Shown: positions 3,543-57,200, counted from the whole stretch's first letter. The stretch is DNA of 63,960 nucleotides, filler included, from Reclinomonas americana ATCC 50394 (GCA_048213135.1; 15 parts of 15 records of this genome joined end to end with filler, not necessarily neighbours in it), one strand, 5' to 3'. Program-made: numbers and translations. Notes: generated by a model not told the origin, from the letters alone.

Positions 3543-6500
3543 ATGAGCCGCGGCGACTACGACGAGCGCATCACGCTCATCGGCGGCGCACACAACGACG
3601 GCACGTCCCCACTCCCCTCCACACACACAAACAAACAAACAAACGCACATGTCGCGACATCTCACTCTATTCCTTCTCTCGCGCGTGCACAGGCCACCTC
3701 TCCGCCGGCTCTGTGACCACCGACGACGAGAAGCCAGTGCGCACCAACACTGGTGGTGGTGGCGGAGGGCGCACGGAGTTGGAGGAGCACGAGGCACCCA
3801 AGTGGGTCAGCAACTGGCGACTTTTCCTCACCACCATTTGCTTTGCCGGAGTCCAGTTTGGATGGGTGAGAGCAAAGAGAGAGAGAGAGAGAGACACACA
3901 GAGAGACACGCATGTGCATTCGTGATGTGATTCATGATTGAGTGGGAAAACTCCGCATCTCCCTCATTCTCTTTCTTTTCTCACTCTCTTTTTCTTTCTC
4001 TCTCTGTGTTTGTGTGGTACAGGCGCTTCAGATTGGTCAGATGACGCCCTTCTTGCAAGAAGACATCAAGCTGCCGAAGGCCATGTCGACATTGGTGTGG
4101 CTTGTCGGACCGCTGTCAGGTGAGAGACTCATGCGTTTCACTGCCTCCCTCCCTCACAGTGCTGCACTCTCGGAGCACTCAGCACTCTCCACTCTGTTCC
4201 CTGTCTCATTACTCAGTGGCTTCCTTCACTGTGATCTCTGCGTTTATCATCAGCAATCGCTGGCATCTCTTGTCACTCTCAGCGCCCTGCTCCTTTGCTG
4301 TTGGGGACTCTGCACACTTACTTTCTCACTCTTTCTGTACTCGCTTGGCTTCCTTCATGCGTTGAGTCACTGCTTCTCTCACTCCTTTCTCAGCTCCTCT
4401 CCCTTGTTCACCCGAGAGCTTCTCTTGGTATCTTTACACACTGTCTCCCTCGCTCCTTCAGTTCTCACAGGCAACACTTGTCACTGTGTTCACTACCTCA
4501 CTCACTCCTTCCGCACTCGCTGGAGTCACTGCTTCTCTTTCTCCTCACCTTCTCTCTTCCTCTCTTCTGCGCTTCCCCTTTGCTCTTTTGGTGTCTTCAC
4601 ACACTGTCTCCCTCGCTCCTTCACATCTCGCAAGCAACGCTCATCACTGTGTTCATTACCTCGCTCTCTCCTTCACACTCGCTGGCGTCACTGCTTCTCT
4701 CACTCCTCACCTTCTCACACTCTGTCTCCCTCGCTCCCTCTCTTTCTCGCAGGCGTAGCCATCTCTCAGTTTACTGCCTCGCCCACTCATCAGTACTCGC
4801 TGGAGTCACTGCTTCTCTCTTCCTTTCTTCTGCTCTTCCCCTTTGTTTTCTTTGTCTCCCACGCTATCTTCTCAATTCGTTGGCAACGCTCATAACTCTG
4901 TTCACTGCTCCGCTTCTCTCTCTCTTCCTCTCTTCTGCGCTTCCCCTTATCTCTCTTGGTTACCCTCCACACTGCCCTCCCTCTCCCACCCGTCACTGCT
5001 CTGGAGTTCTTCGTGCTCCTCTCATTCTGCATCCTTCCACCGCCCTTTGCTCGTTGTGATCCCACTGTCAAGACATTCTCCTCCTTCCTGTACCCTCCCT
5101 CCCCCTTCACCCCTCTCACTTGCCTCACCCCACCAGGTCTCATTGTGCAACCGACTGTCGGCGTGCTCTCCGATAAGTTGCGATTTGAACAAGTGCCTTG
5201 TCGCGCACAATCACCACCAGCTCACTCTGTCTCCTGCACAGCTGCACGAGCAAGTTTGGTCGGCGGCGGCCTTTTATTGTCGTCGGAGCCATCTGCGTCG
5301 GTGTGTTACTCGGAGTGAGGGAAACACGCTGTTTGCTGCTGGCGTGGTTGTTCACTGTTGCGCAGCCATGGCCCTGCTGTTGATCCCCAACTCTCCGGAC
5401 ATTGGACGCGCGTGGGGTGACAAGCCAGGCGAGGGTAACAACCCAGCCGCCGTGGCGCTTGCAGTTTCGTGATCATCCCGATGCCTTTCGCTTGATGTAC
5501 TACCCTCCTCTCCTGTACTTGTTAAGCGCAATGCACTGTTGCCAATGATCCTCGCTCACACGCTATCCGTTGGCACTCTTCCGCCTTATCCTGTGTACTT
5601 GTCTCTCTCCATCTTTTCTTCTCTTTTGTACGCTTCTCACCTCTTCTCTTCTCNNNNNNNNNNNNNNNNNNNNNNNNNNNNNNNNNNNNNNNNNNNNTTA
5701 ATTAATTAANNNNNNNNNNNNNNNNNNNNNNNNNNNNNNNNNNNNNNNNNNNNTCATCTCTTCTCCTCTCTCTTTCCTTCTCTTCCCATTTCTTGTTCTC
5801 CTTCTCATCCCATTACTTCTCTCCGCTTCTCTCCCCTTCTCGGCTCCTCTCATCTCTTCTCCTCTCTTCTCCTCTTCCCCCCCATTTATTCTCTTCTCTC
5901 CACTTCTCTTGTCTCTCTCCTCTCTGCTTCGGCTCCTCTCATCTCTTCTCCTCCTCTTTTCCCCCATTTATTCTCCTCTCTCCACTTCTCTTATCTCTCT
6001 CCTCTCTGCTTCTCTCCTCTTCTATCCCTTCTTGACTCTTCTCCCCCATTTATTCTCTTCTCTCCACTTCTCTTCTCTCTCTCCTCTCTGCTTCGGCTCC
6101 TCTCATCTCTTCTCCTCCTCTTCTCCCCCCTCTTTTCCTCCCTCTTTTCCTTCTCTTGTCTCTCTCCTCTCCGCTTCTCTCCTCTTCTATCCCCTCTTGA
6201 CTCTTCTTCTCTCTTCTCCTCACTCTTCTCCTCCTTCTTTTCCTTCCCTTTGCATTTCTTCTCATCTCTCATCTTCTCGCCCTCCGTTCCCCCTTTCCCC
6301 TTCCCCCTCTTCCCCCTCCTTCCCCTTCCCCCTTATCCCCCCTTTCCCCTCCTTCCCCTTCCTTCCCCCTTCCCCCTCATCCAGGTCATCGGCTTCGCTC
6401 TCTTGGACTGCAGCAACAACATGCTACAGGGACCGTGCCGTGCACTTTTGGTGGACGTGGCACATCCAGAACAGCAAGAGATCGGCAACGCATTCTTCTC

Positions 6501-8093
6501 CGTCGCCCTCGGTGCGTGCCGCCGACTCACCACCTCTCAAGCACTCCCTTTCCCTTCCCTCATTTCCTCCTCCCCCAGGCATCGGCAACGTGGCTGGCTA
6601 CCTGGCCGGCACCGTCAAGTGGTCCACCATGATGCCGTGGCTCAACACATCGGCGTGCCTCTCTGCCTGCGGCAGTGCACGCTTTGCATTCAGTTTCGTC
6701 AACCTTTTCTTCCCTCCCCTTCTCTCTTCCTCTTTCCTGACTCTCGCGCAGGTCTTTCCGTGATCTTCCTGTCGGTGACCGTATTCATCACCGCGTGGAC
6801 CACATCGGAGAAGCCGCTGAAGAAGTTGCCGGGCCCCAAGCCGCACTGCTGCCGCAGCACCGCCAAGGTGTTTATCGACATTTTCCGGTCCATTCGACAC
6901 ATGCCGTCGGCCATGATTCGCATCTGCCTCGTCCAGTTCTTCTCGTGGTTTGTATCTCTTTCGCACCCGTTCCCTTCCTTCGCTCGCCTTCCTCGTCGTC
7001 GCTCACTCCTCTCCGCAAAGGATTGGCTGGTTCGCCTTCCTCATCTCCATCACGGATTGGGTGGGCCAAGACGTCAACGGCGGCAACCCGCAAGCCGATC
7101 CCGGCACGAGCGCCAGGGAAAAGTACGAGGAAGGTGTACGCATGGCGCAGTACGGCCTGGCTGGCTACGCCGGCCTTTCGCTCGCCGTGTCGCCACTCAT
7201 CGCCAAAGCATCGAAGAAGTTTGGCGAGCGTACCGTGTGGTTCTTTGGTCAGATTTGCATGGCTGTGGCCCTCGGCGTCACGCCGCTGGTCAACTCCATC
7301 GCATGTTACTTTTTCTCCTGTGCTCTATGTGCATCTCGCGACGCTTTGCATGTACTCATGCTTGGCGTGCAGCTGCCTGCATCGTGATCACGGTCTTTGG
7401 CATCCCGTGGGCGGTCACCATGATCATCCCGTACGCCATGACAGCCAGCGTGTCTCCGCTGCAAGACCGCGGGCTGTTCATGGGTTCGTGTATAGCAGTC
7501 GGGGATTGTGTGCGTGTGAGAAGAGAGAGAGAGAGAGTGAGTGAGAGGGGAGAACTCACGCCTCTCTGGTTTTCCTCTCTCGCTCCATCCCTTTGCCTCT
7601 TTCCTCTCATCTTTGTCTCACATCCCCTCCGTTTCCGGTTGTCTCTTGCACTCTTATTCTCACTCCTCACTCACCTTTGTTACATTTTGCATTCCGCTCC
7701 TGTCCTTCACACTTTTTGCTCTCCTTCTTGTTCCCGTTCTGGGCGTGTCTGTGCACTGCAGCTGGCTGACACACAGTTGGCGCGCAGGCACACTGAATAT
7801 CTTTGTCGTGCTGCCGGAGTTCCTGATGGCCCTCGTACAAGGTCCACTGGTCACCAAGTTCAACAAGGTGTACGCCGGACTGCTGCTCGGTGCCGGTGCC
7901 TCCATCATTTGTTGCGTCGCCTTCGCTCTTTCTCCTCCCTCTTCTATTTCCTGCCACTAACGCTTGAAAATCAGCCGCCCTCTGCTGCTTCTTGCTGATT
8001 GTGCGCAAGGGCAAGGGCGAACTGACGAGAGAGACGCGCGCCGAGTACGGCACCCTGCACTCCGACGTCGAGTCAACGAGCTCGAAGCACTAA
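3543..8093 (+). CDS. Sucrose/H+ symporter-like MFS transporter (plant SUC/SUT, SLC45 family), multi-exon, spans a gap
   Basis: Spliced motifs AGVQFGW|ALQ, WLVGPLSG|LIVQPTVGVLSD, SKFGRRRPFI, LLDCSNNMLQGPCRALLVD, FFSW|IGWFAF, GLFMG|TLNIFVVLPE. Confidence 0.92.
4130..5030. repeat. Degenerate intronic minisatellite / pyrimidine-rich repeat
   Basis: Recurrent units such as gctggagtcactgcttctct and cacactgtctccctcgctcc inside a transporter intron. Confidence 0.7.
5654..5753. other. Artificial scaffold gap spacer (first of 14)
   Basis: N44-TTAATTAATTAA-N44 with six-frame stops. Others at 8597, 16388, 20876, 23142, 29353, 33163, 35837, 36973, 43094, 44299, 48420, 60821 and 62021. Genes continue across several of them and true gap sizes are unknown. 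Confidence 0.98.
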
Positions 8094-8715
8094 AGAAATC
8101 CACCGCAAGTGGACACGATAGGAGAGTCCCCACGTGGGGGCGAGAAGAAGAGCTTGTGTTTTTCCTTTATGAAAGTTTTGTTTGCGTTTCATCATCGCCG
8201 AGTTGTCCTGCAGGCAGTTCGAAATCGAGTTGCCGGCAAGTGCACAGCCGCGCTCGTCCCTTCTTCTCTCTGTCTCTTCTCCTCTGTGTCTCTCTCTCCT
8301 ACCATCCGTCGACGAAAATGTCGTTTTCCAACGCGGGTGCGCCACCAGATCGCTCTGGCGGGAATCCCTCCTTCTCCATCTCCTCCTCCTCCCATTCCTC
8401 TTCCTCCTCTTCTTCATCATCGCTGCGCCACCTCCTCACCTCACACGCGGCCTCTCTCGCCAAACACTCTCTCCACCGGCGATTCCGTCACAAGAGGCGC
8501 GTCTCGCCCGACCATCTCCAACACATGCTCGCCACCGCACGACGCCGCCGCCTCCACGGTGACTCACCTTCCTCTCCACCTCCACCTCCTCCACCTNNNN
8601 NNNNNNNNNNNNNNNNNNNNNNNNNNNNNNNNNNNNNNNNTTAATTAATTAANNNNNNNNNNNNNNNNNNNNNNNNNNNNNNNNNNNNNNNNNNNNTCCG
8701 TCGTCGACTCTACCG

Positions 8716-25158: not shown

Positions 25159-27673
25159 ATGTCTTCTCTGCAAGAGACTGTGGTGTTGGAAGGCATGACG
25201 GCCATGTCCACTGTCGCTGACGTGGCACGCAACGCTCAGCGCGCGCTTCAAGCCACTGCGCGCAGAGGCAGTCGTGTGAAGGTGATGTCTGTGAATGGCC
25301 TGACACGCGCCAATTGGCGTAAGACTTTGGCGGAGTGCGGATGGGATCCGCAGGCGCGAATGGATGTGTGCTTTTGGTGAGTGCCTCTTCGGCCCCCCAC
25401 TTCGCTGCGCGCGCTTTTGTGACTCACACATACTCTCTCTCTCGCTCGCTTGCTTACACAGCAGTGGGGATGGCGTGACGGCAGCTAGAATGCGCCTTCG
25501 TGCATTCTATTGTGGGGGACAAGAGGTTGAGGATCGAGATCGCGTGTGTGCGTGGGGAATGTTCAGTGCAATTAGAAGCGGTGCTGTGCGAGCGGGATAT
25601 GATCATCTAGAGTGTGGAGGCGGAAGGAAGCGCGAGGCGGTGACGAAGCGCAACAAGAGAACTCGCGGCAAGACGTATATCCAGGTTCGTGGTGTCGCTC
25701 TTTACCCGATCTCTTTCACTGAGGTGTGTGCTTACTTTCCCTTCTCGACAGGTGCCAGCTGCGCACGACTATGAACTGATGATCGATGCAATGATGCCAT
25801 TGACACTGTCTCACTCGCGTTGCCGAGCTTCAGAGGCGTCGTGTGACTCTTGTGAACAATTGTTGGATCTCGACCATGTTGCGTCCGTTGGTGACGACGA
25901 CTCTGAAGCTATGGACTACGACGATGAGTGTGGTTGCGGTGTCGGTGGCGGAGCTGGTTGCAGCAGAGCACACTCGGCGGGTTGCGACCATGCTCACCAT
26001 GGTCATCTGGCGGAAACAGTCTCGAGCGTACGCCTTGTATTGGGTGAAGACGGTTCATCTTGGGAGTCGCACTGCGATCACTGCGGAGATTGTGTTTACG
26101 GTCGTGGAAGAACTGTGACTCTTCCGATGGTGCCTGCGTGTGCTGGGAACGATGGTCCTGTGGGCGTGCTTCCGCCGGCAACTTGGACTACGACGGTGTA
26201 TGAGGCACCTGTGATGAAGCCCACCATGCCCATGCCTGTGAGCAGACCGACCGCGATCTATGTCCCCACGGTCTCCCGATTCCCAGCTCTCAATCTGCCG
26301 CCACCTACTCTCCCGCCACCTATTCTGCACCCGCCGCCACCGCCTGCTTACCCAGCTCCCGAACTTCGACCATTGACAATGCAGCAAGAACCACAACAAC
26401 AACCACCACCAGCATTTCCAGCCCCCGAGCTACCGCCACCGGCATCGACTGTATCATCGGCTGATCGGTAAGCATTGTGCCGTGTTCTTTATGTAGACAG
26501 AATATTACTGTCAGTCGTGTTCCATTTCCGGCAGTGGCATGTTTTCAGAGATACAGTGTCGTATGTCGTATTCTAAATCCTGTCGTCTGCACAAACAGGC
26601 TTCCGGCATTTGAGTTGCCATACAGCCCCTACGCACTGGCCGCCTTCCGGAGAGCCGTGGACTTGCTTCAGGTTTGTTTATGCTGCTTCTGCTTTTATTA
26701 GTTTGTTATTTTTGCTAATATTTTTCTGATGATCAGCATGCCCCGAACCCCGTTTTCCCGCTCTCGCAACTGGCCAAGCGCAACTGCGAGACACACCTCG
26801 ATGTGGACGCCGGCCGCCAGCAGATCATGTTTGACTTTATGCGGCGGGCGGGCTGCGGCCCGCACGTGCAGCACCTCAAGCCGGAGGACTTGCAAATTCT
26901 CTTCGAGTTGTACGATCGAGTCTTCTTTCAGGACCTGATCTCCCGGGTGTTCAAGTACCACAATCGGACGTTGAAATTCACTGTGGCATCGAGCGGCGAT
27001 CGTCGTGCCGGCCACTTTTCTCGTCGCGGTGTGGCGCACGAGATTTCGATTTCATTCGCCCTCATTGCCACCGCCGTGCCACGGCCGTTTTTCGCAGCTG
27101 AGCAACCGGTTTGTGTGCTCGTCGCCAAGCTTTCTTTTCTGTTGTTCTGCTGCTTCTAGTGCCACTCACTTTTCTGGTGTGTGTCAATGTCAGCAGTCGC
27201 AGGCCGTTCCGATTGTCGAGTCGTCGGGCGACCTCTTTTCTCCGGAGCCTGGCACCCCGCAGACTTGGAATGCGGAACCAGTGTTCCCGCCCTCCGAGAC
27301 CGCAGTGCCGTACGCCACAGGCGTGCTGGTCGGCGAACTGCAGCAGACCGCCACAGGCTTCAACACCTTTGAGAAGGCGGTGGTGGAGGAGGAGGAGGCG
27401 GCGGCGGCGGAGAAGCTGCAGCAGGCGACTGCCGAACCATCACCGTTCTCTATCGGATCGGTGTCTGTGTGTGGCCACGACTGTCACTCGCGCCTGGCCG
27501 CGCTCATGCGTGTGTTTGAGCACGAGCTTGCGCACTTGCTGTGCTTTTCGAATTATTTCACCCTGGAGGACAGCCACGGACCGGAGTTCAAGGCGATTGT
27601 GTTTGCCTTTTTCCGACACGGCGATGTGACGCATCGGCTTGCGTCCTCGGTTCCTCCGTGTGGATCTCGGTGA
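25159..27673 (+). CDS. Ubiquitin-like header + Cys/His-rich + Pro-rich linker + SprT-like zinc metalloprotease
   Basis: LFELYDRVFF...RRAGHF...EISIS, then FEHELAHLL (HExxH, 27521-27535) and SHGPEFK. The N-terminus VVLEGMTAMSTVADVARNA matches the header exon of the NLR-like genes. Confidence 0.8.
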
Positions 27674-28415
27674 TGTGTTGCTTAAAAATCAAGTACGAAA
27701 TGAGTGGCATTGATGTGTGGGGTGCTGAATATCTCTTCTCTTGCGATGTAGAATTGATGGGAGTGGAGCCTTTGATGAACGCGAGCGGAGGGTTGCGCGG
27801 AGGTTGCTGGTGGGGGGGGACGGGCTGCTGAGCGAGGGGGTGTGCAAAATGGCACAGGCCCACGTTGTGCACTCTGATTGCTGTCGGCTGGGTTGATCCG
27901 CGTGCGTTTTGTTTGCTTGCGCCACGGTTAACCCCCGGCAGTCAATCAGTTGTGCACCGTGGGTAACTGTTTTTTTGGCCAAGTCGCCACACGGTAGCTC
28001 ACGCTGCACTCTTTGATTCGATGTGGCCCGGGTTAGTGCGCGTGCATTGTTGCTGTTACGCGCATCAACCCCCGCCAGTCGGTCAAAAGTGCTGCGTGGG
28101 CTACTGTGTGTGCACTCGGGATTGTTCCTGCCATTGTTGCACACCTCGCTTGCGCACGGGCTCGCCCTCCGACCAGCCATTGACGATCTTCCAGACGTTT
28201 CGGAGTTTCTGGAGGCTTCCACTGCCCAGGTTTGCTCGTTTCACACACAACAACACTACACACGAGAGAGCACAGCGTAGTTGATTACGGAAACATAGGC
28301 ACACTTGCATTCGCACAACCATCCCAGCGAAAGAGGAGCAGGGGGACAAAACACACACACACACTAGATGTGTACACCAGCGCAGCGATTTGCGCGCTGA
28401 TTCCCAGTGGCACAC

Positions 28416-29054
28416 TCACGGAGAGTTTTCTTGGCTACACACGAGGAGAGAGAGATAGTTAGTGAATGCACGCAGAGAATTGAAGAGGGGAGGGAAGGGG
28501 GGTGACTCACCACTGCGAGGGAAGACCGACGTCGGTGGGTCCGACGTTGGTCGACAGGCCCATCCACTGACGCATGGCCTTGATGATGGAGAGGTCGCGG
28601 TGGGTGCGGGTGTAGACACCCTGCGCCCATGAACCGTTGCTGTACACGGTGTAGCCGCACGCATTCGGGTCGTGAGCAGTGGCCTTGGCCATGCTACGGC
28701 ACGAGCCGCAGTCGGGACCCGTGCACAGCTTGCCTGCACGCGCGGTGTGAGACGGTTGAAGGGGGGAGGGCAAGGATTAAAAACAAAAAAGTGTTGGGGA
28801 AAGACACGCAACAGTCGGAGAAACCGTCCGGGAAGCCCTGCACACACAATACACACAAAGAGTTCAGCATGCACCGTGTCACCTGTCTCTGTTTCTCAAT
28901 CTCGAAAGGGAACACGAAACGTAGGCGCCATAGTCCATGAACGTGTAGCTGGAGAGCAGAAGCTTGATCTTCCAGTTGCCGTCGGTGCGCGTAAACAGCT
29001 GCGTCTCGAAGTAGCGGTGCGAGTGCACATCCTTTTGCTTCACCAGCACGGAGC
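28416..29054 (-). CDS. 3' exons of a GH13 alpha-amylase-like protein (type recalled from Trichomonas and anaerobic fungi); 5' part in gap
   Basis: WKIKLLLSSYTF, GFPDGFSDC, AHDPNACGY and GVYTRTHRDLSIIKAMRQWMGL. Confidence 0.65.
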
Positions 29055-29293
29055 CTGTTGAGAGAGGGAAGGGTGAGGAGAGAGAAGGGAGGAAGTACGA
29101 CACCAGAAAGTGGCGAAGATGACAACACAAACGACAACGGTGGAAAGGAGAGAAAAAGGAGGAGGTGCGACACCAAAAGGTGGCTAAAAAGACAGCACAA
29201 ACGACAAAGGTGAGGAGAGAGAAGGGAGGAGGCGCGACACCAAACGGTGGCTATAAAGACAACACAAACGACAAAGACGGGGAATCGTTCGTG

Positions 29294-29345
<52 letters not shown>

Positions 29346-29452
29346 GACGACGNNNNNNNNNNNNNNNNNNNNNNNNNNNNNNNNNNNNNNNNNNNNTTAA
29401 TTAATTAANNNNNNNNNNNNNNNNNNNNNNNNNNNNNNNNNNNNNNNNNNNN

Positions 29453-36930
<7,478 letters not shown>

Positions 36931-37098
36931 TGCGTTTGCTTGTGGACTGGACACGCGTTTTTCTTGTAACACNNNNNNNNNNNNNNNNNNNNNNNNNNNN
37001 NNNNNNNNNNNNNNNNTTAATTAATTAANNNNNNNNNNNNNNNNNNNNNNNNNNNNNNNNNNNNNNNNNNNNCACGCACGCTGCGGAGAAGTACGGTC

Positions 37099-37142
<44 letters not shown>

Positions 37143-37293
37143 AAGTGTGTGATGTGTGTATTGTGGGCCTTTACATTCTCTTCCAATGGTATTCCCCACT
37201 CACTCGCTTTAAATTTCTCTTCTCTTTCACCCTCTCTCCCTCTCCCTCGCCCTCTGCCGGTCGTTTTCTCACTCACCACCATCGCTGACAGGT

Positions 37294-37552
37294 TTGCGCA
37301 CACACATGAGTGCATCGCATGCTTCGCCGCTGGCATTTATGGTGGAGGGCTTGGCGGCCGAGTCAGCTCCTTGTTATTTGCAGTCTGAGTCCACTTGCTC
37401 ATTGTGGACGAATAGTGAGGTCGAAGCAACGGTGATTGTGGGGGTGGATAGGCGAGTCGAACTCGTGTTTGACAGTCGCACGTCATGCGAGGCCTCGTTT
37501 GGAATGTGTGGACCTGTCATCGAATCCTGCTGGCAGTCTTCGTTTTCTTCCA
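37294..37552 (+). pseudogene. Diverged extra copy of the ubiquitin-like header exon
   Basis: THMSASHASPLAFMVEGLAAESAPCYLQSESTCSLWTNSEVEATVIVGVD aligns without gaps to VHVSAAHDSSLSVVVESMSALSTLADLLREATRLLREKSGDEGVEIVGVE. It could also be a live upstream exon. Confidence 0.55.
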
Positions 37553-37962
37553 GGTTGGTTTGTCTTCAGACATCCTTCGCTCTGTAATGCTTTCTGAGTT
37601 CGCGTACCAGGTGCGTCTTCGCGCGCATGTGTTCTTCTTTGTATGTTTGTGTGTTGCCGATTGATGGAGAGGACAAAGCTTTACGCTTGCTGAACATGAG
37701 CGCCTATTGTCTGATCTTTTGCATGCATGCTGACGTAAACCTCGCAGGCTCTTCTTCAAACGGTATCTGTGCCTGCATCGTCGTATTGCTCTTGTGGGCG
37801 GTGGGTGTTGTTCCTCGCGTCAGGCTGCGGCAGACAATAATGGGCGTGCACGTTCCTCCTATTCTGCATCTGCATCTTCCGATGTGTCCACAACTGTGGT
37901 GCGTAGACATCATCCAATGTGTTTCAGGTTTTTTTCTGACAGCATGTATTTTTCACAAACAG

Positions 37963-40900
37963 TTTCCTGTTCGCGTCAGCGCGTTGCACGATACATCGCT
38001 ATGGGTGGTGGTTGAGGGCATGTCGGCCGTGTCGACTCTCGCGGACTTGCTGCGCGAGGCCACACGCTTGCTGCGTGAGAAGAGCGGAGATGCGGAGATG
38101 GAGATTGTGGGAGTGGAGAAACCAATGGAGTTTGACATTGTGGACGGTGGCGACACTCTGCTGCGCACTTTGGAAATTAAGGCCACCACCCATTTGTTTG
38201 TGCGCGTTACCATGCCGTCTGCGACCCCTTCTCCGGCTGTGGGTGGATTCGCAAGGTGACTATTGTTGTTCTGCATGTTGCTGTGTGCACACTTGAGAGA
38301 GCGAGCTCATCTGCACTCTCTGTGTCAAGCGCTCCCGGATGGACGGAGCGGTTTGTCGTCATTCAACGTCACAACTGACTTGTCTGCATTCGTTCCAACT
38401 TGCATGATGTCTCTGCAGAATGGCCCTTTCGAATCGTATCGACGTGGCGTGGGAGGCCGTTGCTGACGCCATACGTCTGCGATGTAGACACACACTGGCA
38501 CAGTTCAGTCGCGATCATCCCGACTTTGACGTGCGGGCTTGGACTCCCGATGTATACACTCCGCCTTTGTTCTGGCATCCTTTGACGATGAAGGCGTGGT
38601 ACGATCAACATGCGCCACTCCACCCTGGTCGAGTCAAGCTATTTGCACCACAACAGCAACACTTGCTCGACTGGAAGACTGCCTTCGATGCCGATCCCGC
38701 CTCTGACCCTCCGTGTGACGCATTTGATGTGACAGCTTTGACGTCGATCCTGCTTTTTGGTGGCTTTGTGCGTGATGGCGGTTGCAAGATGATGTTGATA
38801 GACGATGCCGTTGAACGCAAGACGGTGGAACAGTTGCGAGAGGTGCGTAACACGCTAAGCCATGAATCGTCGGCGTTCAGCGGGGCCTCTGTGCAAGAAT
38901 ATCTCGGTGACCGTGGCGCGTTCCTCGCCCTTGTTGGCAAGTTGCAGCTGCCTGCCGATGCGCTCGATGGATTTGTTTCACGGATTCGCGAAGCACGCCA
39001 TCTGGACGTCAACGTCAGTACATTTGTAGTGCGACTGCATCGACTGGCTGTGCGTGAGCTCACTTTCTACCAGCACGACGAGAGTGTGCACAAGGACATA
39101 CAAACGTATGTGCCGTTACTGTGCTCACGTGAGCGTGACATCTCATCGAGAGACAAGATGACGGATCTGTTGACAGAGGTAGATGCCTTCCTCTCCGACG
39201 CCAACACCACCCATCATGCACTGGTGCTGTTTGGCAACAGTGGTGCTGGCAAGACCACCACCATGTCGGTCCTGGCTGAGCGAGCATGGCGACAGTGGCA
39301 GATTGGAGCAAGCGGACGTGTGCCTGTGCGTGTGCCTCTTGGTGCATTGCGCAATGCCGATGAGCGATTGTTGGAGGAGGCACTGGAACGATTGTCACCC
39401 GAGTTGGGATTCAGTGAGGCGGATGTGCGACGATTGAAGGAGGAACCACTGCTGTTGTTGCTTGACGGGTATGACGAGTTGTACCGTGGTGTGAACCTGT
39501 TTGTCAAGAACCAGCTGGATGTGTGTCGCGATGTGAAGGTGATTATCACCTGTCGAGGCGATTATGCACTGACTGCACTGGGTGGAGCGGCGCAGTATCG
39601 ACGGTACTTTGCGCCAGTGGATGCACGCGGACAGTTATGCATGCATCAGCTGATGGAGAGACACATTGCACCATTCAATAAGGAGCAGATTGAGGAGTAC
39701 TTTGTGAGATTGGTGCAAGCGAGCGGCGAGGACGATGACGGTGGAGTGCAGTGGTCGACTGCCCAGGAGTACATTCGTGCACTGAGGAGTGTACGCGGAC
39801 TGGATACATTGGTGTCGAATCCATTCCTGCTGTCGGTGGTGGCTCGTGTGTTGCCACAGTTGGTGGCGAGTGGCATGCAGCGACCGACTCGGCGAGATGT
39901 GTTTGACCAATTTATTCGGCAGTGGATTGATAGGGAGCAGGAGAGACAGACGCGTCTCGCAGCTGAGCGTTTGCCGAGTGAGGAGACATGTGTCTCATTC
40001 TGTGAGGGACTGGCACGGTTGATGCATGAGAGGAATGTGGTGCGTGTGTCTGTGCTGGAGAGTCGACCAAAGGATAATGGAGAGGAGGATGACTTTGGTG
40101 GTGCGCCACATGGTATTCCACGACGGGAGGAAGAACCGTTTGACAAGTTCCTCGGCCGCAAGAACCAGCATGTGCGAGTGTGCTGTCCGATCGTGCGACG
40201 GTATGGCACGACACAGTGGGGATTCGTGCATCTGTCGTTGTTGGAGCACTGCGTGGCACGGCATGTTTTCGCATGGGAGTCATGGGATGAGGAGAGGAGG
40301 TTGACGATGGAAGATGTGCAACAGCATGTGTTGGCAGTGCGACTGCTGAATGATCGACCTTCGCTGGTGGAGCAGATGGCCGAAGTGGTGCGACGGTCTC
40401 CTCGATTGCAAGCGAGACTGTGGGAGGTGATTGAGTTGTCGAGAAAGATGGATGAAGAGCGAGTGGTGACGGCAGCCGCGAATGCAGCGACGGTGTTGAG
40501 TTTGGCACAAGTGTCGTTCAGTGGGCGCGATCTGTCGGGTGTGCGAGTGCGGGGTGCGGATTTGAGGGATGCGGTGATGCACAAGACGGTGTGGCGAGGG
40601 GCGGATTTGCGTGAGGTGAATGTGTGCATGGCGTATGCGAGGGAGGCGGATTTCAGGGGGGCGGATGTGACGGGTGTGAAGTGGCCGAGGAAGCCTCTGG
40701 TCGGTCATACTGGCTTCGTGAATGCAACTGCCGTTACTCCCGACGGTCTTTGCATTGTAAGCACCAGCCATGATACAACCGTGCGTGTGTGGTCACTGGC
40801 ACATGGTGAAGAAGTACAACGGTTTGAGGGACATGTTGGGTGGGTGTGGGCTGTTGCCGTCACGCCCGATGGGCTACACATTATCAGTGGGGGTCAAGAC

Positions 40901-42169
40901 TCGTCAGTACGTGTGTGGTCACTGGCGAGTGGAAATGAGGTGCGACGGTTGGTTGGACACGTTGGAGCTGTAAATTCTGTCGCTGTCACTCCCGATGGTC
41001 TACATGTTGTAAGCGTGAGTTGGGATAAGACCTTGCGAGTGTGGTCGCTGGAGAGTGGTGAGGAGATGAAACGGCTGGAGGGGCATGAAGGTGTCGTATG
41101 GTGCGTTGCCGTTACTCCTGATGGCCAACACGCTGTGAGTGGGAGTGGAGACAAATCCATTCGGATGTGGTCTCTGGTCAGTGGAGAAGAAGTTCGACGG
41201 TACTACGGACACGCCGATAGCGTACAGTCTGTTGTCGTCACTCCTGATGGTCAGTACATCGTGAGCGGGAGTAATGACAAAACAGCGCGTATTTGGTCAC
41301 TTACAAGCGGGCAAGAAGTGCGGCAACTGGTGGGACACGCTGCCGCTGTACTCTCGGTAGTTGTAACAGTCGATGGCCATTGTGTTGTTAGTGGAAGCGA
41401 GGACATGACCGTTAGAGTATGGTCGCTAGCGAGTGGAGAAGAATTGCGACGGCTGGAGGGACACACGGGATCAGTGAATGCTGTCGCCGTCTCTCCTGAC
41501 AGTAGGCACTTTGTAAGTGGAGGCAGAGATGAAACGGTGCGAGCGTGGTCTGTCGCAAGTGGGGAAGAAGTGCGACGATTGGAGGGACATACTGCTGAGG
41601 TGACCGATGTGGCTCTTGCGTTTACTGCGTGTGGTCAGCTCCTATCTCTCGGTGAGCGCGAATATCCATCTCCACCTGACTACGTTGTTAGTGGGAGCTG
41701 GGACAACTCAGTGCGCGTGTGGTCCTTTGCGAGCGGGGAGATACTGCAACATTTGGTGGGTCACAGTGCCTCTGTACTGACTGTTACAGTCACTCACGAC
41801 GGCAAGTACATTGTGAGCGGAAGTGTTGACAAGAGTGTTCGAGTGTGGAATCTGGCGAGCGGTGCGGAAGTCCGACGGCTGGAGGGGCACACCAGCTCAG
41901 TGTTTTCTGTCACGATCACTCCTGACGGGCAGCACATCGTAAGTCAAAGTGTTGACAACATTGTGCGAATTTGGTCACTGGCGAGTGGCAATGAAGTGCA
42001 TGAGGGCACGCCGGATGCCGTTTCCTTCGCCCATCGCGCCGTCGCAGTCGCGGCAGACTTGACCATTCGAGGATTGGGCAAGTCAATTATCGTGATGCGA
42101 GAGCAGCTGCACGAGCGGATATTTGGTTCATTTATGCCAGACTTTACTGACGTCGTGTATGATGAGTAA
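37963..42169 (+). CDS. NLR-like protein 1: Ubl header - HEPN - NACHT - pentapeptide - 10x WD40 (start exon not located)
   Basis: Exons 37963-38255, 38330-38350 and 38419-42169 splice in frame. HEPN motifs FDVTALTSIL and RNTLSH (38846-38863). Walker A GNSGAGKT (39233), Walker B LLLLDGYDE, pentapeptides FSGRDLSGVRVRGADL, then GH..WS repeats from ~40696. Confidence 0.88.
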
Positions 42170-42239
42170 ATAAGGAGCGAGGGACAAGGCGAGGGGACAG
42201 AAAAGGGTCCAGGGGAAGGGTCAAGAGTTGAGGGTGGAG

Positions 42240-42960
42240 AGAGAGAGAGAGGCAAGAGAGACGAGAGAGGAAGACGAGGCAATAGAGGCGAAAGAGGCAA
42301 GATAGGCAAGAGAGAGGCAAGAGAGAGGCAAGAGAGGAAGAGAAGCAAGAGAGAGGCAAGAGAGGCAAGAGAGGCAAGAGAGGCAAGAGAGGCAAGAGAG
42401 GCAAGACAGGCAAGACAGGCAAGAGAGGCAAGACAGGTAAGAGAGGCAAGAGAGGCAGGAGAGGCAGGAGAGGCAGGAGAGGCATGAGAGGCAAGAGAAG
42501 CAACAGGGGCAATAGAGACAAGAGAGGCAAGAAAAGCAAGAGATGCAAGAAAGGCAAGAGAGGCAAGAGAGGCAAGACAGGCAAGACAGGCAGACAGGCA
42601 AGACAGGCAAGACTGGCAAGAGTGAGGCAAGAGTGAGGCAAGAGTGAGGAAAGAGTGAGGCAAGAGAGGCAGGAGAGAGGCAAGAGAGGAAGAGAAGCAA
42701 GAGAGGCAAGAGAGGCAGGAGAGGCCAAGAGAGGCAAGAGAGTCGAGAGAGGCAAGACACAAAAGAGAGGCAAGCGAAAGGCAAGTGAGACAGGAGAGAC
42801 AAGACAGGCAAGACTGGCAAGAGAGACGAGAGAACCAACAGACTCATGACTCCTGGAGAGACAGACAAGAAGGGCAAGAGAGGCGAGAGAGGCTAATAGT
42901 GCAAGACAGACAACACAGGCAAAAGAGAAATAGGCAAGAGAGGCAGGTGAGGCAAGCGAA
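42240..42960. repeat. 9-nt minisatellite (AGAGGCAAG)n
   Basis: Dozens of agaggcaag/acaggcaag units immediately downstream of the AKR exon donor site on the minus strand. Confidence 0.9.
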
Positions 42961-42966
42961 AGTCAC

Positions 42967-43093
42967 CTGCAACACGCTCTCCTCCATCTGCGCTCCGCCG
43001 AGGGGCACATACGAGCCAGCACCCAGCGGCGAGTATGCCGTCACACGCACTCCCTCCTCGCGGCAGAAGCGCAGGAGGCGCTCTTGTGTGAGA
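42967..43093 (-). CDS. Internal exon of an aldo-keto reductase
   Basis: QERLLRFCREEGVRVTAYSPLGAGSYV followed by a GTGACT donor. The 5' side runs into a gap. Confidence 0.8.
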
Positions 43094-43483
43094 NNNNNNN
43101 NNNNNNNNNNNNNNNNNNNNNNNNNNNNNNNNNNNNNTTAATTAATTAANNNNNNNNNNNNNNNNNNNNNNNNNNNNNNNNNNNNNNNNNNNNTGCGAAG
43201 GGGACGAAGCGGAGGGGGAAGTGAGGTGAGATAGAGAAGAAAGGGAAAGGAGAGGGAGCCAAGGAGAGAGAGGTAAAAGAGAGAGGGTAGGAGGGAACCA
43301 AGGAGAGGGAGGGAAAAAGAGAGAGCTAAGAAGAGAGAGGGAACGAGAGGGGGCCAAGGAGAGAGCGCGAAGGAGAGGGAGTACATTCTCAAGGAATGTA
43401 TTCTCTCCTTCTCCTTCTCTCTCCCTTCCCATTCCCCTTTTCCCACCCTTTCCCTTCTCTCTCCCTCCCTCTCTCTTGTTCAC

Positions 43484-43650
43484 CTGCTGATACAGCTGCA
43501 ATCGATGCGCGGCTACCCACTCGCTCAGCGCACGCACATCGCCCTCGGCTGAGCTCTCAGCAGCGGGAGTAAGGGTCAGCGGGAAGGGTCGGCCGCGCAC
43601 GATGCGGTCGCCGGGAACGCGAGTGGCGTGACGGTGAGAGGCATGCACGA
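43484..43650 (-). CDS. 5' exon of a TauD/clavaminate-synthase-like dioxygenase
   Basis: VPGDRIVRGRPFPLTLTP...LSEWVAAHRLQLYQQ followed by a GT donor resembles the N-terminus of this family. The remainder would be in the gap. Confidence 0.5.
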
Positions 43651-43889
43651 AGTTATCCGTGAGTGAGACAAACGCAATGCGCCACGTCATCCGCAAAAAA
43701 GACAAACACCGCACGCTTGCTGGAGTCGCAGCGTGCAGTGTTTGCGCAGCGTTGATTGCGGAGGGTGTGACTTGAGGTACGCGAGCTCTTCTGCGAGGAA
43801 AAGAGACAGCGTGCGATAGCGCCAAACCGATCTTGTTGTCTCACTCCGCTCACCAACAACCTCTCTCTCATGCTGTAGCGCAGGCGGAG

Positions 43890-44413
43890 ATGGCGGCGAG
43901 TGGCTCCGGGTCGCGTTCCGTCCTCGACCTTGACAACCCAGAGTTCTGTTGTCCGTGTGTGATTGATGTTGTCAGATGTCGCACTCACATCTCTGCTCGG
44001 CCGTCAGGTGTGCCAACTATGTGCGGTTCATGGCAGCCACGTTTGAGATGACCAAGGCACTGCAGCGCGAGTGTCATCATCGCCTCGCTGCCCTTCGTCG
44101 CATGTCGCCGGAATTTGATCCGCGTGAGTGGCTGAAGGGGGAGAAGAAGGCCAAGGCGAGGTATGTGTTTGGAAGTTGTGCGTTGAGGGTGCGAGTGCGA
44201 AACAAGAAATGTGTGCAGACGGGAGCTGAGAGAATAGAAGTGGAGGAACCGAGGGTTTGCGTGCAATAAGGGATTCAAACGAAGAGAGAGAGAGAGAANN
44301 NNNNNNNNNNNNNNNNNNNNNNNNNNNNNNNNNNNNNNNNNNTTAATTAATTAANNNNNNNNNNNNNNNNNNNNNNNNNNNNNNNNNNNNNNNNNNNNTC
44401 TTCTTTCTTTCTT

Positions 44414-44452
<39 letters not shown>

Positions 44453-54224: not shown

Positions 54225-57200
54225 ATGTCGGTGAGTTGTATTGATTGAGTGGGGGACGCTTGCTGTTCGCTTGCTTCTCTCTCTCTTCTCTCTTTCTCAT
54301 CGCTTGTCGCTCACTGCCTTGTGTGTGTCGCACAGTTCTCTGTGCACGTGAGTGCGGCGCATGATTCATCGCTGTCGGTGGTGGTGGAAAGCATGTCGGC
54401 CTTGTCCACTCTCGCGGACTTGCTGCGCGAGGCCACGCGTTTGCTGCGTGAGAAGAGTGGAGATGAGGGGGTGGAGATTGTGGGAGTGGAGAAGCCGAGT
54501 GCATTCGACATCGAGGAGGGCGGTGGCATTCCGCTTCGCATTCTCGGCATCAACTCATCAACACACCTTGTTGTCCGTCTGACAGTTGACGTGGCGCCGC
54601 AGTCGAAGGGAGGGAGAGGGAGTGGAAGGTGCATGTGTTTGTGAATCATCTCTCTGTGCAAAGCATGTATCTCACTCTCATATCTCCCAGCAGCAACTCG
54701 GAGCGAGTGACTCGGTTTGTTCTGCTTGCCTTTGTCATCCTTCTTCTCTCCCTTTGCTTGTTCTTCCACGCGAGGCGAGTCTCTGCTGACTATGTCTGTG
54801 TGTACGCACAGTGTGATCAACTCGAATCGCATCAACATGGCATTTGAGGTGGTGGAGGAGGCCGTGCGTCTTCGGTGTCAACGCGCACTGGCGCAGTTCA
54901 GTCGCGATCATCCCGACTTTGATGTGCGCGCGTGGGTGCCGAGTTTCACACCTGCCGGCATGGATGCGGCGGCTGTGAAGGCATGGCGTGAGCGACATGC
55001 TCCACTCCATCCCTCTAGAGTCAAGTTGTTTGAGGAGAAGCAGCCGGTGGCGTTGGCCTGGCGTGCTGCATTCGACGCCGACCCGTCGTCCGACCCTCCG
55101 TGTGACGGTTTCGACATGACGGCACTCACTTCTATCTTGTTGTATGGTGGCTTTGTTCATGATGACGGCCGCCAGGTGCTATTGATTGTCGATGCTGATG
55201 AACGGAAGGCGGTTGATGGCCTACACAGTGTCAGGAACAAGCTAAGACACGATGAGCTGCCGTTGACGGATGCCACTGTGCAGCAGTACCTCGGTGACGG
55301 TGGAGTGTTCCTTTCCATCCTCTCCCGATTGCAACTGACGGTTGACGAGCGCGTTCAGTTCTTTCTTCGGATTCGCGAAACCAATCTCATTGACGTAGAC
55401 GTCAGTACATTTGCGGTGCGCCTCCATCGGCTGTCTGTGCATGAGCTCTCATTCTATCAGCACGATGAGAGCGTGCGCAAGGACTTGCAGATGTATGTGC
55501 CATTGCTGTGCTCACGTGAGCGTGACGTCTCATCGAGGGAGAAGATGACGGATCTGCTTACGGAGGTGGATGCTTTCCTCTCCGACAAGAATACCACGCA
55601 GCGTGTGCTGGTGCTCTTTGGCAACAGCGGAGCCGGCAAGACCACCACCATGTCGGTGCTGGCTGAGCGGGCGTGGCGACAGTGGCAGACAAGAGTGAGC
55701 AGATGTGTGCCTGTGCGTGTGCCTCTTGGTGCACTGCGCAATGCCGATGACCGACTGGTGGAGGAGGCATTGGAGCGACTGTCACCCGAGTTGGGATTCA
55801 GTGAGTCGGATGTGCGACGGTTGAAGGAGGAACCACTGTTGTTATTGCTTGACGGGTACGATGAGTTGTATCGTGGTGTGAATCTGTTTGTCAAGAACCA
55901 GTTGGATCCGTCTGTGTGTCGCGATGTGAAGGTGATTATCACCTGCCGAGGCGACTACGCACTGACGGCACTGGGTGGGGTAACGCAGTATCGACGGTTG
56001 TTTGCACCGGTGGACGCACGAGGACAGTTGTGTATACAACAGTTAATGGAGCGACACATTGCGCCGTTCAACAGGGAGCAGATTGAGAAGTACTTTGAGC
56101 GACTGGTGCAAATTGGCGGTGATGACGGTGAAGTGCGATGGTCGACTGCCGAAGAGCACATTCGTGCACTGAGGAGTGTGCATGGACTGGATGTACTGGT
56201 GTCGAATCCATTCCTGTTGGCAGTGGTGGCTCGTGTGCTGCCGCAGTTGGTAGCGAGTGGCGTGCAGCGACCAACTCGATGCGATGTGTTTGACCGATTC
56301 ATTCGACAGTGGATTGTGAGAGAACAGGAGAGACAGACGCGTCTCGGTGCGGAGCGTGTGCCGACTGAGGAGACGTGTCTGGCATTCTGCGAGGGACTGG
56401 CACGGTTGATGCATGAGAGGAATGTTGTTCGTGTATCTGTGGCGGAGGGTCAATCAAGTGAGGAGGATGACTTTGGCGGCGCTCCAGTTGCCGGTGGGCA
56501 AGTGGATGAGGGACCGTTTGACAAATTCCTCGGGCACAAGAATCAACATGTGCGAGTGTGCTGTCCGATTGTGCGACGATATGGAACAGATCAGTGGGGA
56601 TTCGTGCATCTATCGTTGCTGGAACTCTTTGTGGCACGACATGCGTTTGCGTGGGAGACGTGGGATGAGGAGAGGAGATTGACGATGGAAGATGTGCAGC
56701 AGCATGTATTGGGTGTGCGGCTGCTGAACGACAGACCTTCGTTGGTGGAACAAATAGCGGAGGTAGTGCGACGGTCTCCCACACTCCAAGCGAGGCTGTG
56801 GGAGGTGATTGAGATGTCACGAGAGTTGGATGATGAGCGATTGGTGACGGCTGCCGCGAATGCTGCGACGGTGTTGTGTGTGGCTCAGGTGTCGTTCAGT
56901 GGGCGAGATCTGTCGGGTGTGCGAGTGAGGGGCGCAGATTTGAGGCATGCGGTGATGCACCGGACGGTGTGGAGGGGGGCAGATATGCGAGGGGTGAATG
57001 TGTGCATGGCATATGCGAGGGAGGCGGATTTCAGAGGAGCGGATGTGACGGGTGTGAAGTGGTCGAGGAAGCCAATGGTCGGGCACACTGGAGGAGTGAC
57101 TTCGGTCGCTGTCACTCCCGATGGTCAGCACGTTGTGAGTGGCAGTTATGACCGGACTGTACGGGTGTGGTCGGTGGCGAGTGGCAAGCAGGTGCGCCGA

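What the first reader, a model, noticed from the sequence alone, without database searches (positions are those of the whole stretch)
25159..54628. A portable ubiquitin-like header exon shared by unrelated effectors (SprT protease and both NLRs)
VVLEGMTAMSTVADVARNA (25159, SprT gene), VVVEGMSAVSTLADLLREA (37963) and VVVESMSALSTLADLLREA (54336) are the same ~80-aa module, and a diverged fourth copy is at 37294. In both NLRs it is a 293-nt phase 0/2 exon followed by a 21-24-nt micro-exon, and it ends THLFVRV or THLVVRL, reminiscent of the Crinkler HVLV junction. Known: Crinkler/RHS effectors use Ubl headers recombined onto varied toxin domains. Inference: a lineage-specific header shuffled onto protease and RNase payloads as a targeting, delivery or stability tag. 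This leaves open whether the NLR-like proteins are defensive or delivered.
Basis: partly seen in the sequence, partly recalled or inferred. Interest (0 to 1): 0.72.

Follow-up and report, generated by a model that had tools for sequence, protein, structure and literature searches.

The report
Ubiquitin-fold head of expanded protist NLRs
The repeated module is a real ubiquitin-fold domain, but it is the standard front end of one large family of immune-receptor-like genes in a free-living protist rather than a tag shared by unrelated toxins, and a short variable patch in it may decide which family members can pair.

Summary
The module is real and folds as a beta-grasp (pLDDT 85; best PDB match Z 10.2). 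The 'portable header on unrelated effectors' reading mostly fails. The two NLRs are paralogs, and 131 of 135 informative header-bearing genes sampled from this genome belong to one HEPN-like (or caspase)-NACHT-pentapeptide-WD40 family. The SprT copy is a remnant: 45 nt are family-like, strand 1 is missing, and the sister copy has shrunk by in-frame deletions. The fourth copy is decaying. No Crinkler profile or motif matches. Public matches are three Reclinomonas americana ESTs. The scan noted this NLR family before on other DNA.

New here: residues 55-70 are hypervariable and vary independently of the rest of the gene. A single-sequence model supports a symmetric homodimer through this block (score 0.44, best control 0.02). 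Charges at predicted contact 61/68 are complementary or neutral across paralogs (like-charged in 1 of 128). Best reading: a homodimerisation head with paralog-sorting variants for dimer-activated HEPN or caspase effectors. This is inferred; intrachain salt bridges are not excluded, and header-to-HEPN splicing has no RNA support yet.

The parts
25159..25376 (+). SprT-like gene, first coding exon: truncated, diverged remnant of the Ubl head (no strand 1, most of the variable block missing), phase-2 donor
   Evidence: single-sequence model without beta-grasp, low confidence
25180..25224 (+). 45-nt tract 89-91% identical at DNA level to NLR heads (strand 2 and start of helix 1)
   Evidence: blastn E 6e-12
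25465..27673 (+). rest of the SprT-like gene (exons 25465-25684, 25752-about 26468, later exons with the HExxH motif)
   Evidence: first three exons in frame; SprT-like PF10263 E 1.9e-4, 21.7 bits, below cut-off 25.6
37294..37553 (+). fourth copy: decaying tandem Ubl head upstream of NLR1; splicing to NLR1 unresolved
   Evidence: dN/dS against the family 0.57 versus 0.22 and 0.29 for the two intact heads
37824..37898 (+). probable Ser-rich linker exon ending in phase 0 before the NLR1 head (inferred from splice signals only)
   Evidence: (in-frame 6-nt indel in the twin copy on C932)
37963..38255 (+). NLR1 Ubl head exon, 293 nt, phase 0/2
38125..38172 (+). NLR1 variable block (codons 55-70), class A (acid 61, basic 68)
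38330..38350 (+). NLR1 21-nt micro-exon
38419..42169 (+). NLR1 long exon: HEPN-like (38420-39064), NACHT (39065-40099), pentapeptide spacer, WD40 propellers
   Evidence: (NACHT E 1.2e-8; HEPN_Swt1 E 0.006, below cut-off)
54225..54230 (+). NLR2 first coding exon (Met-Ser), then a phase-0 intron
   Evidence: spliced form seen in an EST of a paralog (P0004)
54336..54628 (+). NLR2 Ubl head exon, 293 nt, phase 0/2; the sequence that was folded
54498..54545 (+). NLR2 variable block (codons 55-70), core of the predicted homodimer interface, class A
54694..54714 (+). NLR2 21-nt micro-exon (24 nt with the upstream acceptor)
54812..58991 (+). NLR2 long exon: HEPN-like, NACHT, pentapeptide spacer, WD40 propellers

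Best explanation
The module is the ubiquitin-fold N-terminal domain of one greatly expanded family of intracellular NLR-type proteins (Ubl - HEPN-like or caspase effector - NACHT - pentapeptide - WD40) in a jakobid. SHOWN by sequence and models: the fold, the family-wide gene layout, purifying selection, near-obligate linkage to this NLR, and that the SprT and fourth copies are partial, decaying derivatives. INFERRED: the head is a symmetric homodimerisation module. It sits directly before effectors that work as dimers (HEPN RNases form a composite active site; caspases activate by dimerisation), so it would hold or bring two effector domains together when the NACHT switch fires. Its interface is a ~16-residue block present in at least three charge classes (acid61/base68, base61/acid66-69, neutral) and apparently exchanged between paralogs. 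In a symmetric dimer like classes would pair and the two charged classes would repel, which limits cross-assembly among more than 100 paralogs. I put the family-head part at about 0.9 and the dimer-with-sorting mechanism at about 0.45.
For: Census: 131 of 135 informative header-bearing genes are the NLR. Of 7 hand-picked NACHT copies without a nearby head hit, 2 had a head split by a gap, 1 a collapsed in-frame head (by eye) and 4 a gap or contig end upstream. Met-Ser first exon in 85 of 112; ESTs P0003 and P0004 show that junction spliced. Fold. dN/dS 0.25 (codons 1-54) and 0.37 (55-69) in 40 disjoint pairs. Entropy peaks at 55-69. Complex model (alignment not used): supports binding, does not show it; score 0.44, best of 3 controls 0.02; runs agree in at least 95% of contacts, pLDDT at least 91. 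The mark was reached by 21 of 30 solved pairs and 0 of 23 single chains in microbes; in eukaryotes by 17 of 29 pairs, only 1 of 7 with no older solved relative, and 0 of 30 single chains. Interface 53-58, 61-62, 65-66, 68-73, 76. Charges 61/68 in 128 heads: 65 acid/base, 15 base/acid, 10 base/neutral, 30 neutral/neutral, 7 neutral/base, 1 acid/acid, 0 base/base; 22.3 like-charged expected if independent. Four of the top 5 covarying pairs among 110 variable-site pairs are among the 9 predicted inter-chain contacts. Block class is random on HEPN, NACHT and rest-of-head trees (31 vs 30.5, 29 vs 30.7, 30 vs 30.8 shuffled; n=81), while a control trait clusters (8 vs 18.7). 11 of 15 close paralog pairs differ in the block. 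Precedents: HEPN composite site (10.1101/760058, abstract); NRC paralog insulation by diverged dimer interfaces (PMC11524475, passages).
Against: I had no coordinates, so I could not tell whether 61-68, 61-66 and 61-69 also touch within one chain; 5-8 residues apart, they may be plain intrachain salt bridges. The classes descend from a few ancestral blocks, so the counts are not independent events and the nominal p-values (1e-4, 4e-4) overstate. No recent exact block transfer was found: 0 of 5 pairs with block DNA identity of 94% or more had HEPN identity under 65%. No positive selection on the block (dN/dS 0.37, bootstrap 0.28-0.47). Ubiquitin-fold dimers are in the PDB, so the pass may be from memory; only one paralog was modelled and no heterodimer. 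Three main classes are few for over 100 paralogs, and both window NLRs are class A. Class does not track an intact HEPN motif or effector type. HEPN is below the Pfam cut-off and 21 of 81 lack the RNxxxH form (mostly RK instead). Some heads collapse in frame (L210), so the head is not always needed.
Confidence: 0.45

Rival explanations
1. The head is a conventional regulatory Ubl of an intracellular NLR (autoinhibition, or turnover through proteasome, p97 or UBA-type partners) that binds through its conserved face. The variable block is a recombination-prone loop whose charge pattern is only intrachain compensation.
For: Residues 1-54 are very conserved (87% DNA identity between paralogs; dN/dS 0.25), which suggests a shared partner outside the predicted dimer interface. 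Fold matches include Rad23, Dsk2, Ddi2, UBX and UHRF1 Ubls at Z 8.3-9.7. The block is under purifying, not positive, selection.
Against: It does not explain why an alignment-free dimer model lands on the covarying pairs, nor why close paralogs so often differ in this block. A shared fold shows no function. It can coexist with the best explanation.
Confidence: 0.3
2. The head is an integrated bait: a ubiquitin mimic whose variable block is a panel of decoys for proteases or ligases of intracellular bacteria or viruses, and whose attack triggers the NLR.
For: A hypervariable surface block at the N-terminus of an immune-type receptor; tandem heads in one gene mostly differ in class (L079, L084/L105, L193).
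Against: No dN/dS above 1; only 2 of 81 heads have a di-Gly close behind strand 5; 7-21% identity to ubiquitin-family structures; the WD40 propellers are the expected sensor.
Confidence: 0.12
3. One reading: a portable Crinkler-like header shuffled onto unrelated protease and RNase payloads as a delivery or targeting tag.
For: Ubl fold as in CR headers (PMC5289972, passages). A few heads sit on non-NLR genes (L147 WD40-only, L188 other WD40, L185 ARM-like, SprT), and the effector behind the head switches between HEPN-like and caspase (4 genes). Two other SprT paralog types (L182/L183, L184) showed no head in the 3.5-4 kb read (L184 has gaps). CR proteins occur in free-living eukaryotes (PMC5289972).
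Against: 131 of 135 are one NLR family. No PF20147 match, no LxLFLAK or HVLV. The SprT copy is incomplete, and its sister copy lost 54 nt in four in-frame deletions (exon 73% identical against 90-98% in other parts). NLR DNA also turns up as a fragment in another unrelated gene (51443-51621), which points to leakage from an abundant family.
Confidence: 0.08
4. PB1/Par3-type front-to-back polymerisation module that nucleates NLR filaments or puncta.
For: Top fold match is Par3-NTD (Z 10.2, rmsd 2.0, 78 aligned), though tied within 1 Z unit with several plain Ubls; complementary charges on one domain.
Against: The modelled dimer is symmetric with the same residues on both sides; strand 1 has no conserved Lys (PB1 hallmark recalled).
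Confidence: 0.05

Closest known systems
Crinkler/CR proteins with Ubl header domains (PMC5289972, passages; Zhang et al. 2016 known to me only through that review)
   Same: N-terminal ubiquitin-fold domain ahead of an enzymatic domain and an NTPase; expanded family; occurs in free-living eukaryotes too.
   Different: No PF20147 match, no LxLFLAK or HVLVxxP; payload is one NACHT-WD40 receptor family, not varied NTPase-REase or kinase toxins; no sign of secretion; the head is its own exon.
Fungal NLRs with an N-terminal Crinkler (ubiquitin clan) domain (PMC9815663, passages)
   Same: Ubiquitin-clan domain at the front of an NLR, so a Ubl-headed NLR is not new as such.
   Different: Different Ubl family; here the Ubl is followed by a separate HEPN-like or caspase effector and is near-obligate across more than 100 paralogs.
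NACHT-pentapeptide-WD40 proteins of Mortierellomycota (Linnemannia)
   Same: Closest NACHT-region relatives found: 29% identity over 94-96% of the region, with NACHT, pentapeptide and WD40 (7 hits among 8000 candidates).
   Different: They carry Arm-like (PF23948 or source names), SAM or TIR-type front ends, not this Ubl-HEPN head.
DZIP3/Swt1-like HEPN domains of invertebrates and bacteria
   Same: Atlas neighbours of the effector region at 0.90-0.93 include HEPN_DZIP3 (11-38% of members) and HEPN_Swt1 (20%) clusters; RNxxxH in 60 of 81.
   Different: Below Pfam cut-off; the Atlas recognition value (2185) is under its 2300 mark, so this is a lead; RNase activity untested.
Solanaceae NRC helper NLRs with diverged homodimer interfaces (PMC11524475, passages)
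   Same: Working analogy: paralogs insulated from one another by diverged dimer interfaces.
   Different: There the interface is NB-LRR and diverged by clade; here it would be a dedicated Ubl domain with a short block unlinked from gene phylogeny. No homology.
Par3-NTD, UHRF1/NP95 Ubl, Ddi2/Rad23/Dsk2 UBL, ISG15 (PDB)
   Same: Beta-grasp fold over the whole domain, Z 8-10, rmsd about 2.
   Different: 7-21% identity; longer, variable segment before the last short helix; no terminal di-Gly.

Membership tests
Ubiquitin-like beta-grasp fold (NLR heads) | strand-strand-helix-strand-strand order and structural match to Ubl domains | tested here: met
   pLDDT 85.3, pTM 0.73; 35 chains at Z>=8, best 10.2; ubiquitin-fold chains dominate, best E 2.5e-3, none at E<=0.001
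Ubiquitin-like beta-grasp fold (SprT copy) | complete domain with strand 1 and strand 5 | tested here: inconclusive
   strand 1 absent in the alignment; single-sequence model pLDDT 64.8 is too weak to decide
Crinkler / CR-Ubl header | match to Pfam PF20147 | tested here: not met
   0 over cut-off in G000, 2 sub-threshold hits, neither at a head; 0 of 46 members. Atypical CR headers could be missed by this profile.
Crinkler / CR-Ubl header | LxLFLAK and HVLVxxP motifs | tested here: not met
   0 of 81 for each; commonest last strand HLVVR (49 of 81)
Crinkler / CR-Ubl header | recombined onto diverse C-terminal toxin domains | tested here: not met
   131 of 135 informative genes are one NLR family; 4 others plus the SprT remnant
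Crinkler / CR-Ubl header | secretion or translocation into another cell | not testable with these tools
   needs localisation or secretome data; peak 12-residue hydropathy near the N-terminus only 1.4-1.5 in 3 heads
Ubiquitin-like modifier / cleavable Ubl fusion | di-Gly directly after strand 5 | tested here: not met
   2 of 81; GG occurs further down the linker in 51 of 81
NLR / STAND (NACHT) receptor | effector - NACHT - repeat sensor | tested here: met
   NACHT PF05729 E 1.2e-8 over cut-off; 10 and 14 WD40 stretches
HEPN RNase (payload) | profile match and RxxxxH motif | tested here: inconclusive
   PF18731 E 0.006 in NLR1 and in L195, below cut-off, none in NLR2; Atlas lead; motif 60 of 81
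Caspase/metacaspase (alternative payload) | Peptidase_C14 match | tested here: met
   L101 E 1.1e-9, L214 E 3.7e-8, both over cut-off; catalytic activity untested
SprT-like zinc metalloprotease | HExxH motif and PF10263 match | tested here: inconclusive
   HExxH present; one exon scores 21.7 bits against cut-off 25.6; whole spliced domain not scanned
PB1 / Par3-NTD polymerising domains | front-to-back acidic/basic interface | tested here: inconclusive
   best fold match but tied with other Ubls; modelled dimer symmetric
Header exon joined to the NLR | transcript across the head-HEPN junction | not testable with these tools
   junctions are in frame with conserved splice sites; the three EST-derived proteins do not reach that junction

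The most novel reading that the evidence does not exclude
A single-celled eukaryote keeps more than 100 RNase- or caspase-armed NLRs from cross-assembling by giving each a ubiquitin-fold dimerisation head whose interface is encoded by a ~48-nt cassette, swapped between paralogs independently of sensor and effector, with charge-reversed, mutually exclusive classes: a re-assignable pairing code for an innate immune network, which occasionally leaks onto non-NLR genes.
Probability: 0.3. Interest if true: 0.78.

Novelty: new variant of a known kind. Interest (0 to 1): 0.5.

Why it matters
As first framed (a Crinkler-like delivery tag) the finding is mostly explained by paralogy and debris of a big gene family. 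What remains matters for two reasons. It points to a large NLR-type repertoire in a jakobid, a lineage far from animals, plants and fungi; two paper searches found none on NACHT proteins there. And it offers a cheap test of a general question: how hugely expanded NLR families avoid poisoning or cross-firing one another. An 85-residue soluble domain with natural charge-swap variants can be tested directly, and orthogonal small dimer pairs would also be useful tools.

Tried and rejected
Pfam gave no family for the four window copies and only scattered weak hits for 46 heads. The Atlas gave only sub-0.9 leads for the head. A search for longer proteins with the head found none among 8000 candidates, which is weak evidence. 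Fold search of the SprT copy listed no Ubl among the top 50 (best Z 5.0), but the model is low-confidence. Splice-chain enumeration for the fourth copy gave 79,606 formal solutions and was dropped. Positive selection on the block: not found. Head-specific shuffling at the exon boundary: not singled out, since all domain pairs correlate weakly (Mantel 0.16-0.36). Haplotype duplication as the cause of the copy number: rejected, only 2 near-identical pairs among 81 genes, although several diverged loci do come as twins. Class versus payload or HEPN motif: no link. Zhang et al. 2016 was not held, so its domain lists, which may include SprT- or HEPN-bearing CR proteins, were not seen. Paper searches that turned up no report of this head or of a Ubl pairing code: (listings only, except the papers named as read). 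No supplements were read.
Full report
Observation. The copies at 37963 and 54336 are 68% identical. Each is a 293-nt exon with a phase-0 acceptor and phase-2 donor, followed by a 21-nt micro-exon, and joins the long NLR exon in frame. NLR2 begins with a two-codon Met-Ser exon at 54225. The two NLRs are paralogs, 74% identical over 3.6 kb, so they count as one payload type. HMMs built without window copies find the fourth copy (protein E 6.9e-7, positions 4-59; DNA E 3.4e-19, 170 nt) and the SprT copy (25.4 bits against a best shuffle of 11.9 in 2000; positions 14-42 only; DNA 60 nt).

Fold. AlphaFold2 on 46 heads gave pLDDT 85.3 with strand-strand-helix-strand-short helix-strand order. Structure searches return ubiquitin-fold domains almost throughout: Par3-NTD Z 10.2 (rmsd 2.0, 78 aligned), NP95 Ubl Z 9.7, Ddi2 UBL Z 9.4; Foldseek had no match at E<=0.001 but ranked ISG15, OTU1 UBXL and USP15 Ubl first.

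Census. The NLR1 head found 150 scored matches of 166 candidates in the own genome, 138 of them at E<=1.9e-13 on 113 contigs. All 32 non-self hits of the SprT copy fall on these heads. I fetched stretches around nearly all of them; four twins of diverged loci (C509, C6525, C122, C114) were not fetched. One search gave 144 gene groups, one a duplicate. Of the 143, 8 were uninformative (6 at contig ends, 2 in gaps). Of 135: 121 HEPN-like plus NACHT, 5 HEPN-like with no NACHT in the stretch read, 4 caspase plus NACHT, 1 NACHT with a diverged front, and 4 others (L147 WD40-only, L188 another WD40, L185 ARM-like at E 0.017, L162 a frameshifted head before a STIG1-like ORF). The reverse search gave 150 scored NACHT matches of 186 candidates. 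I picked by eye 7 that lacked a nearby head hit: 2 had a head split by a gap, 1 a collapsed in-frame head, 4 a gap or contig end upstream. This was not an exhaustive match. The layout is fixed: Met-Ser first exon in 85 of 112, exon of 293 or 299 nt in 71 of 112, micro-exon found by pattern in 57 of 81. Only 2 near-identical pairs occur among 81 complete genes, so most copies are paralogs.

Origin and expression. A profile search of 1.84 billion proteins gave 3 hits, all ESTs labelled Reclinomonas americana. One is 100% identical to L107 over 94 residues; two show the first intron spliced. None reaches the head-HEPN junction. The genome is therefore probably this jakobid, a free-living bacterivore (recalled).

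The SprT and fourth copies. SprT exon 1 starts at its own ATG and lacks strand 1 and most of the variable block. A 45-nt tract is 89-91% identical to NLR heads, while the rest resembles the family only weakly at protein level (1 of 500 shuffles). In the sister copy (C7337) this exon is 73% identical after codon 7 and has lost 54 nt in four in-frame deletions, against 90-98% identity in the introns and other exons. Two other SprT paralog types show no head. I read this as one real but decaying acquisition, or an old head refreshed by a short conversion tract. The fourth copy has lost invariant residues and shows dN/dS 0.57 against 0.22 and 0.29 for the intact heads; tandem heads occur in several family members. 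A 60-codon piece of the HEPN-like region also lies inside an unrelated P-loop gene at 51443-51621, 80% identical to NLR2, so leakage from this family is not special to the head.

Crinkler test. PF20147 has no match over cut-off in the genome and none at a head, and none in 46 heads. LxLFLAK and HVLV are absent from 81 of 81. The defining trait, varied toxin payloads behind a recombination point (PMC5289972, passages), is not met. Ubiquitin-clan domains in front of fungal NLRs are already reported (PMC9815663, passages). So it resembles a CR header in fold and position but is not a member on these tests.

The variable block. Residues 1-54 are highly conserved and 55-69 hypervariable. All regions are under purifying selection: 0.25, 0.37 (bootstrap 0.28-0.47) and 0.33 along the head, 0.31 for HEPN-like, 0.15 for NACHT, in 40 disjoint pairs. 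A two-copy model of the NLR2 head, made without the alignment, supports but does not show a symmetric dimer: score 0.44, best of 3 controls 0.02, runs agreeing in at least 95% of contacts, pLDDT at least 91. The mark was reached by 21 of 30 solved pairs and 0 of 23 single chains in microbes, and in eukaryotes by 17 of 29 pairs (1 of 7 without an older solved relative) and 0 of 30 single chains; a pass may be from memory of solved Ubl complexes. Its interface (53-58, 61-62, 65-66, 68-73, 76) coincides with the variable block. Among 128 heads, charges at 61 and 68 are acid/base 65, base/acid 15, base/neutral 10, neutral/neutral 30, neutral/base 7, acid/acid 1 (the WD40-only gene L147) and base/base 0; 22.3 like-charged would be expected if independent. 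Among 110 pairs of variable sites, the 9 that are predicted inter-chain contacts rank 2, 3, 4, 5, 8, 15, 31, 37 and 87 by covariation. Block class is no more clustered than shuffled labels on trees of HEPN, NACHT or the rest of the head, whereas a control trait clusters strongly (8 changes against 18.7). Eleven of 15 pairs with HEPN at least 85% identical have block DNA under 65% identical; block identity barely correlates with its flanks (rho 0.10, 0.11), which correlate with each other (0.38). Against: these counts are not independent events, the pairs may also touch within a chain, no recent exact transfer was seen (0 of 5), and both window NLRs share class A.

Mechanism. Shown: an intact, conserved ubiquitin-fold head on one NLR family, expressed at least at its 5' end in some paralogs. 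Inferred: the WD40 propellers sense a ligand, NACHT switches and oligomerises (general STAND behaviour, recalled), and the head pairs two chains so that the HEPN-like domains form a composite active site (10.1101/760058, abstract) or the caspase domains dimerise (recalled). Charge-reversed classes would restrict pairing among paralogs, as diverged interfaces do for NRC helper NLRs (PMC11524475, passages). Rivals are a conventional regulatory Ubl with intrachain compensation (0.30), a bait (0.12), a delivery header (0.08) and a PB1-like polymer (0.05).

Prior notes and novelty. The scan recorded this Ubl-HEPN-NACHT-WD40 family, its caspase form and UBL-ARM genes on other DNA. The listed notes in four look-ups did not mention the dimer interface or the swapped block. 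Parts and layout are known in kind; the head family is lineage-specific, and the pairing-code reading is new as far as my searches reach and unproven. Verdict: new variant of a known kind, interest 0.5.

Noticed in passing
window 50549-52190 (-), fragment at 51443-51621: A P-loop NTPase-like gene without Pfam hit carries a ~60-codon piece of the NLR HEPN-like region, 80% identical in DNA to NLR2, in a different frame from the long ORF just before it.
   Followed up: partly
L197/L062 (G000:C932, about 4670-8200): The twin of NLR1 has an insertion of about 3.5 kb, mostly gap, inside its head exon, with short CCCT/AGGG-like ends; probably a mobile element.
   Followed up: partly
L101, L145, L066, L179, L211, L213, L214: Caspase-like domain in place of HEPN in the same NACHT-WD40 family; Peptidase_C14 over cut-off in the two scanned.
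   Followed up: partly
L181 (G000:C7337), about 1400-2200: The sister SprT copy has a second copy of the HExxH segment and several short tandem repeats of it behind the gene.
   Followed up: no
L210 (G000:C130:59400-61800): An NLR whose head is collapsed by a large in-frame deletion while the exon ends look kept (by eye).
   Followed up: no
L185, L186/L187, L188, L189, L194, L195, L081, L169: Older, strongly diverged members of the Ubl family (HMM scores 16-50), some in tandem, on ARM-like, WD40 and divergent NLR genes; L081 and L169 carry a second head with a Lys-rich insert.
   Followed up: partly
G000:C397, C398, C555, C557, C559, C3679, C4093: A second, more distant NACHT group (54-60% identity) with short open frames, probably intron-rich; heads not examined.
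   Followed up: no
L107 and EST-derived protein P0005: The EST keeps intron 1 and seems to skip about 70 nt inside the head exon, suggesting a cryptic splice that truncates the product.
   Followed up: no
window 57040-58900 and 62334-63960: NLR2 WD40 repeats are about 82-84% identical to one another in DNA, as in concertedly evolving HET-type propellers (comparison recalled); further WD40 pieces lie at 62349-62591 and 63733-63960.
   Followed up: no
window 30293-35493 (+): Large gene with polymorphic-membrane-protein-like beta-helix repeats and a Cys-rich ephrin-receptor-like segment (weak Pfam hits); probably a surface protein.
   Followed up: no
window 45696-46124 (+): Protein kinase exon between the two NLRs (Pkinase E 1.6e-9).
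   Followed up: no
L162 (G000:C7502:6476-12577): A frameshifted head and micro-exon are followed by a STIG1-like Cys-rich ORF (E 1.9e-31), just downstream of another NLR.
   Followed up: partly
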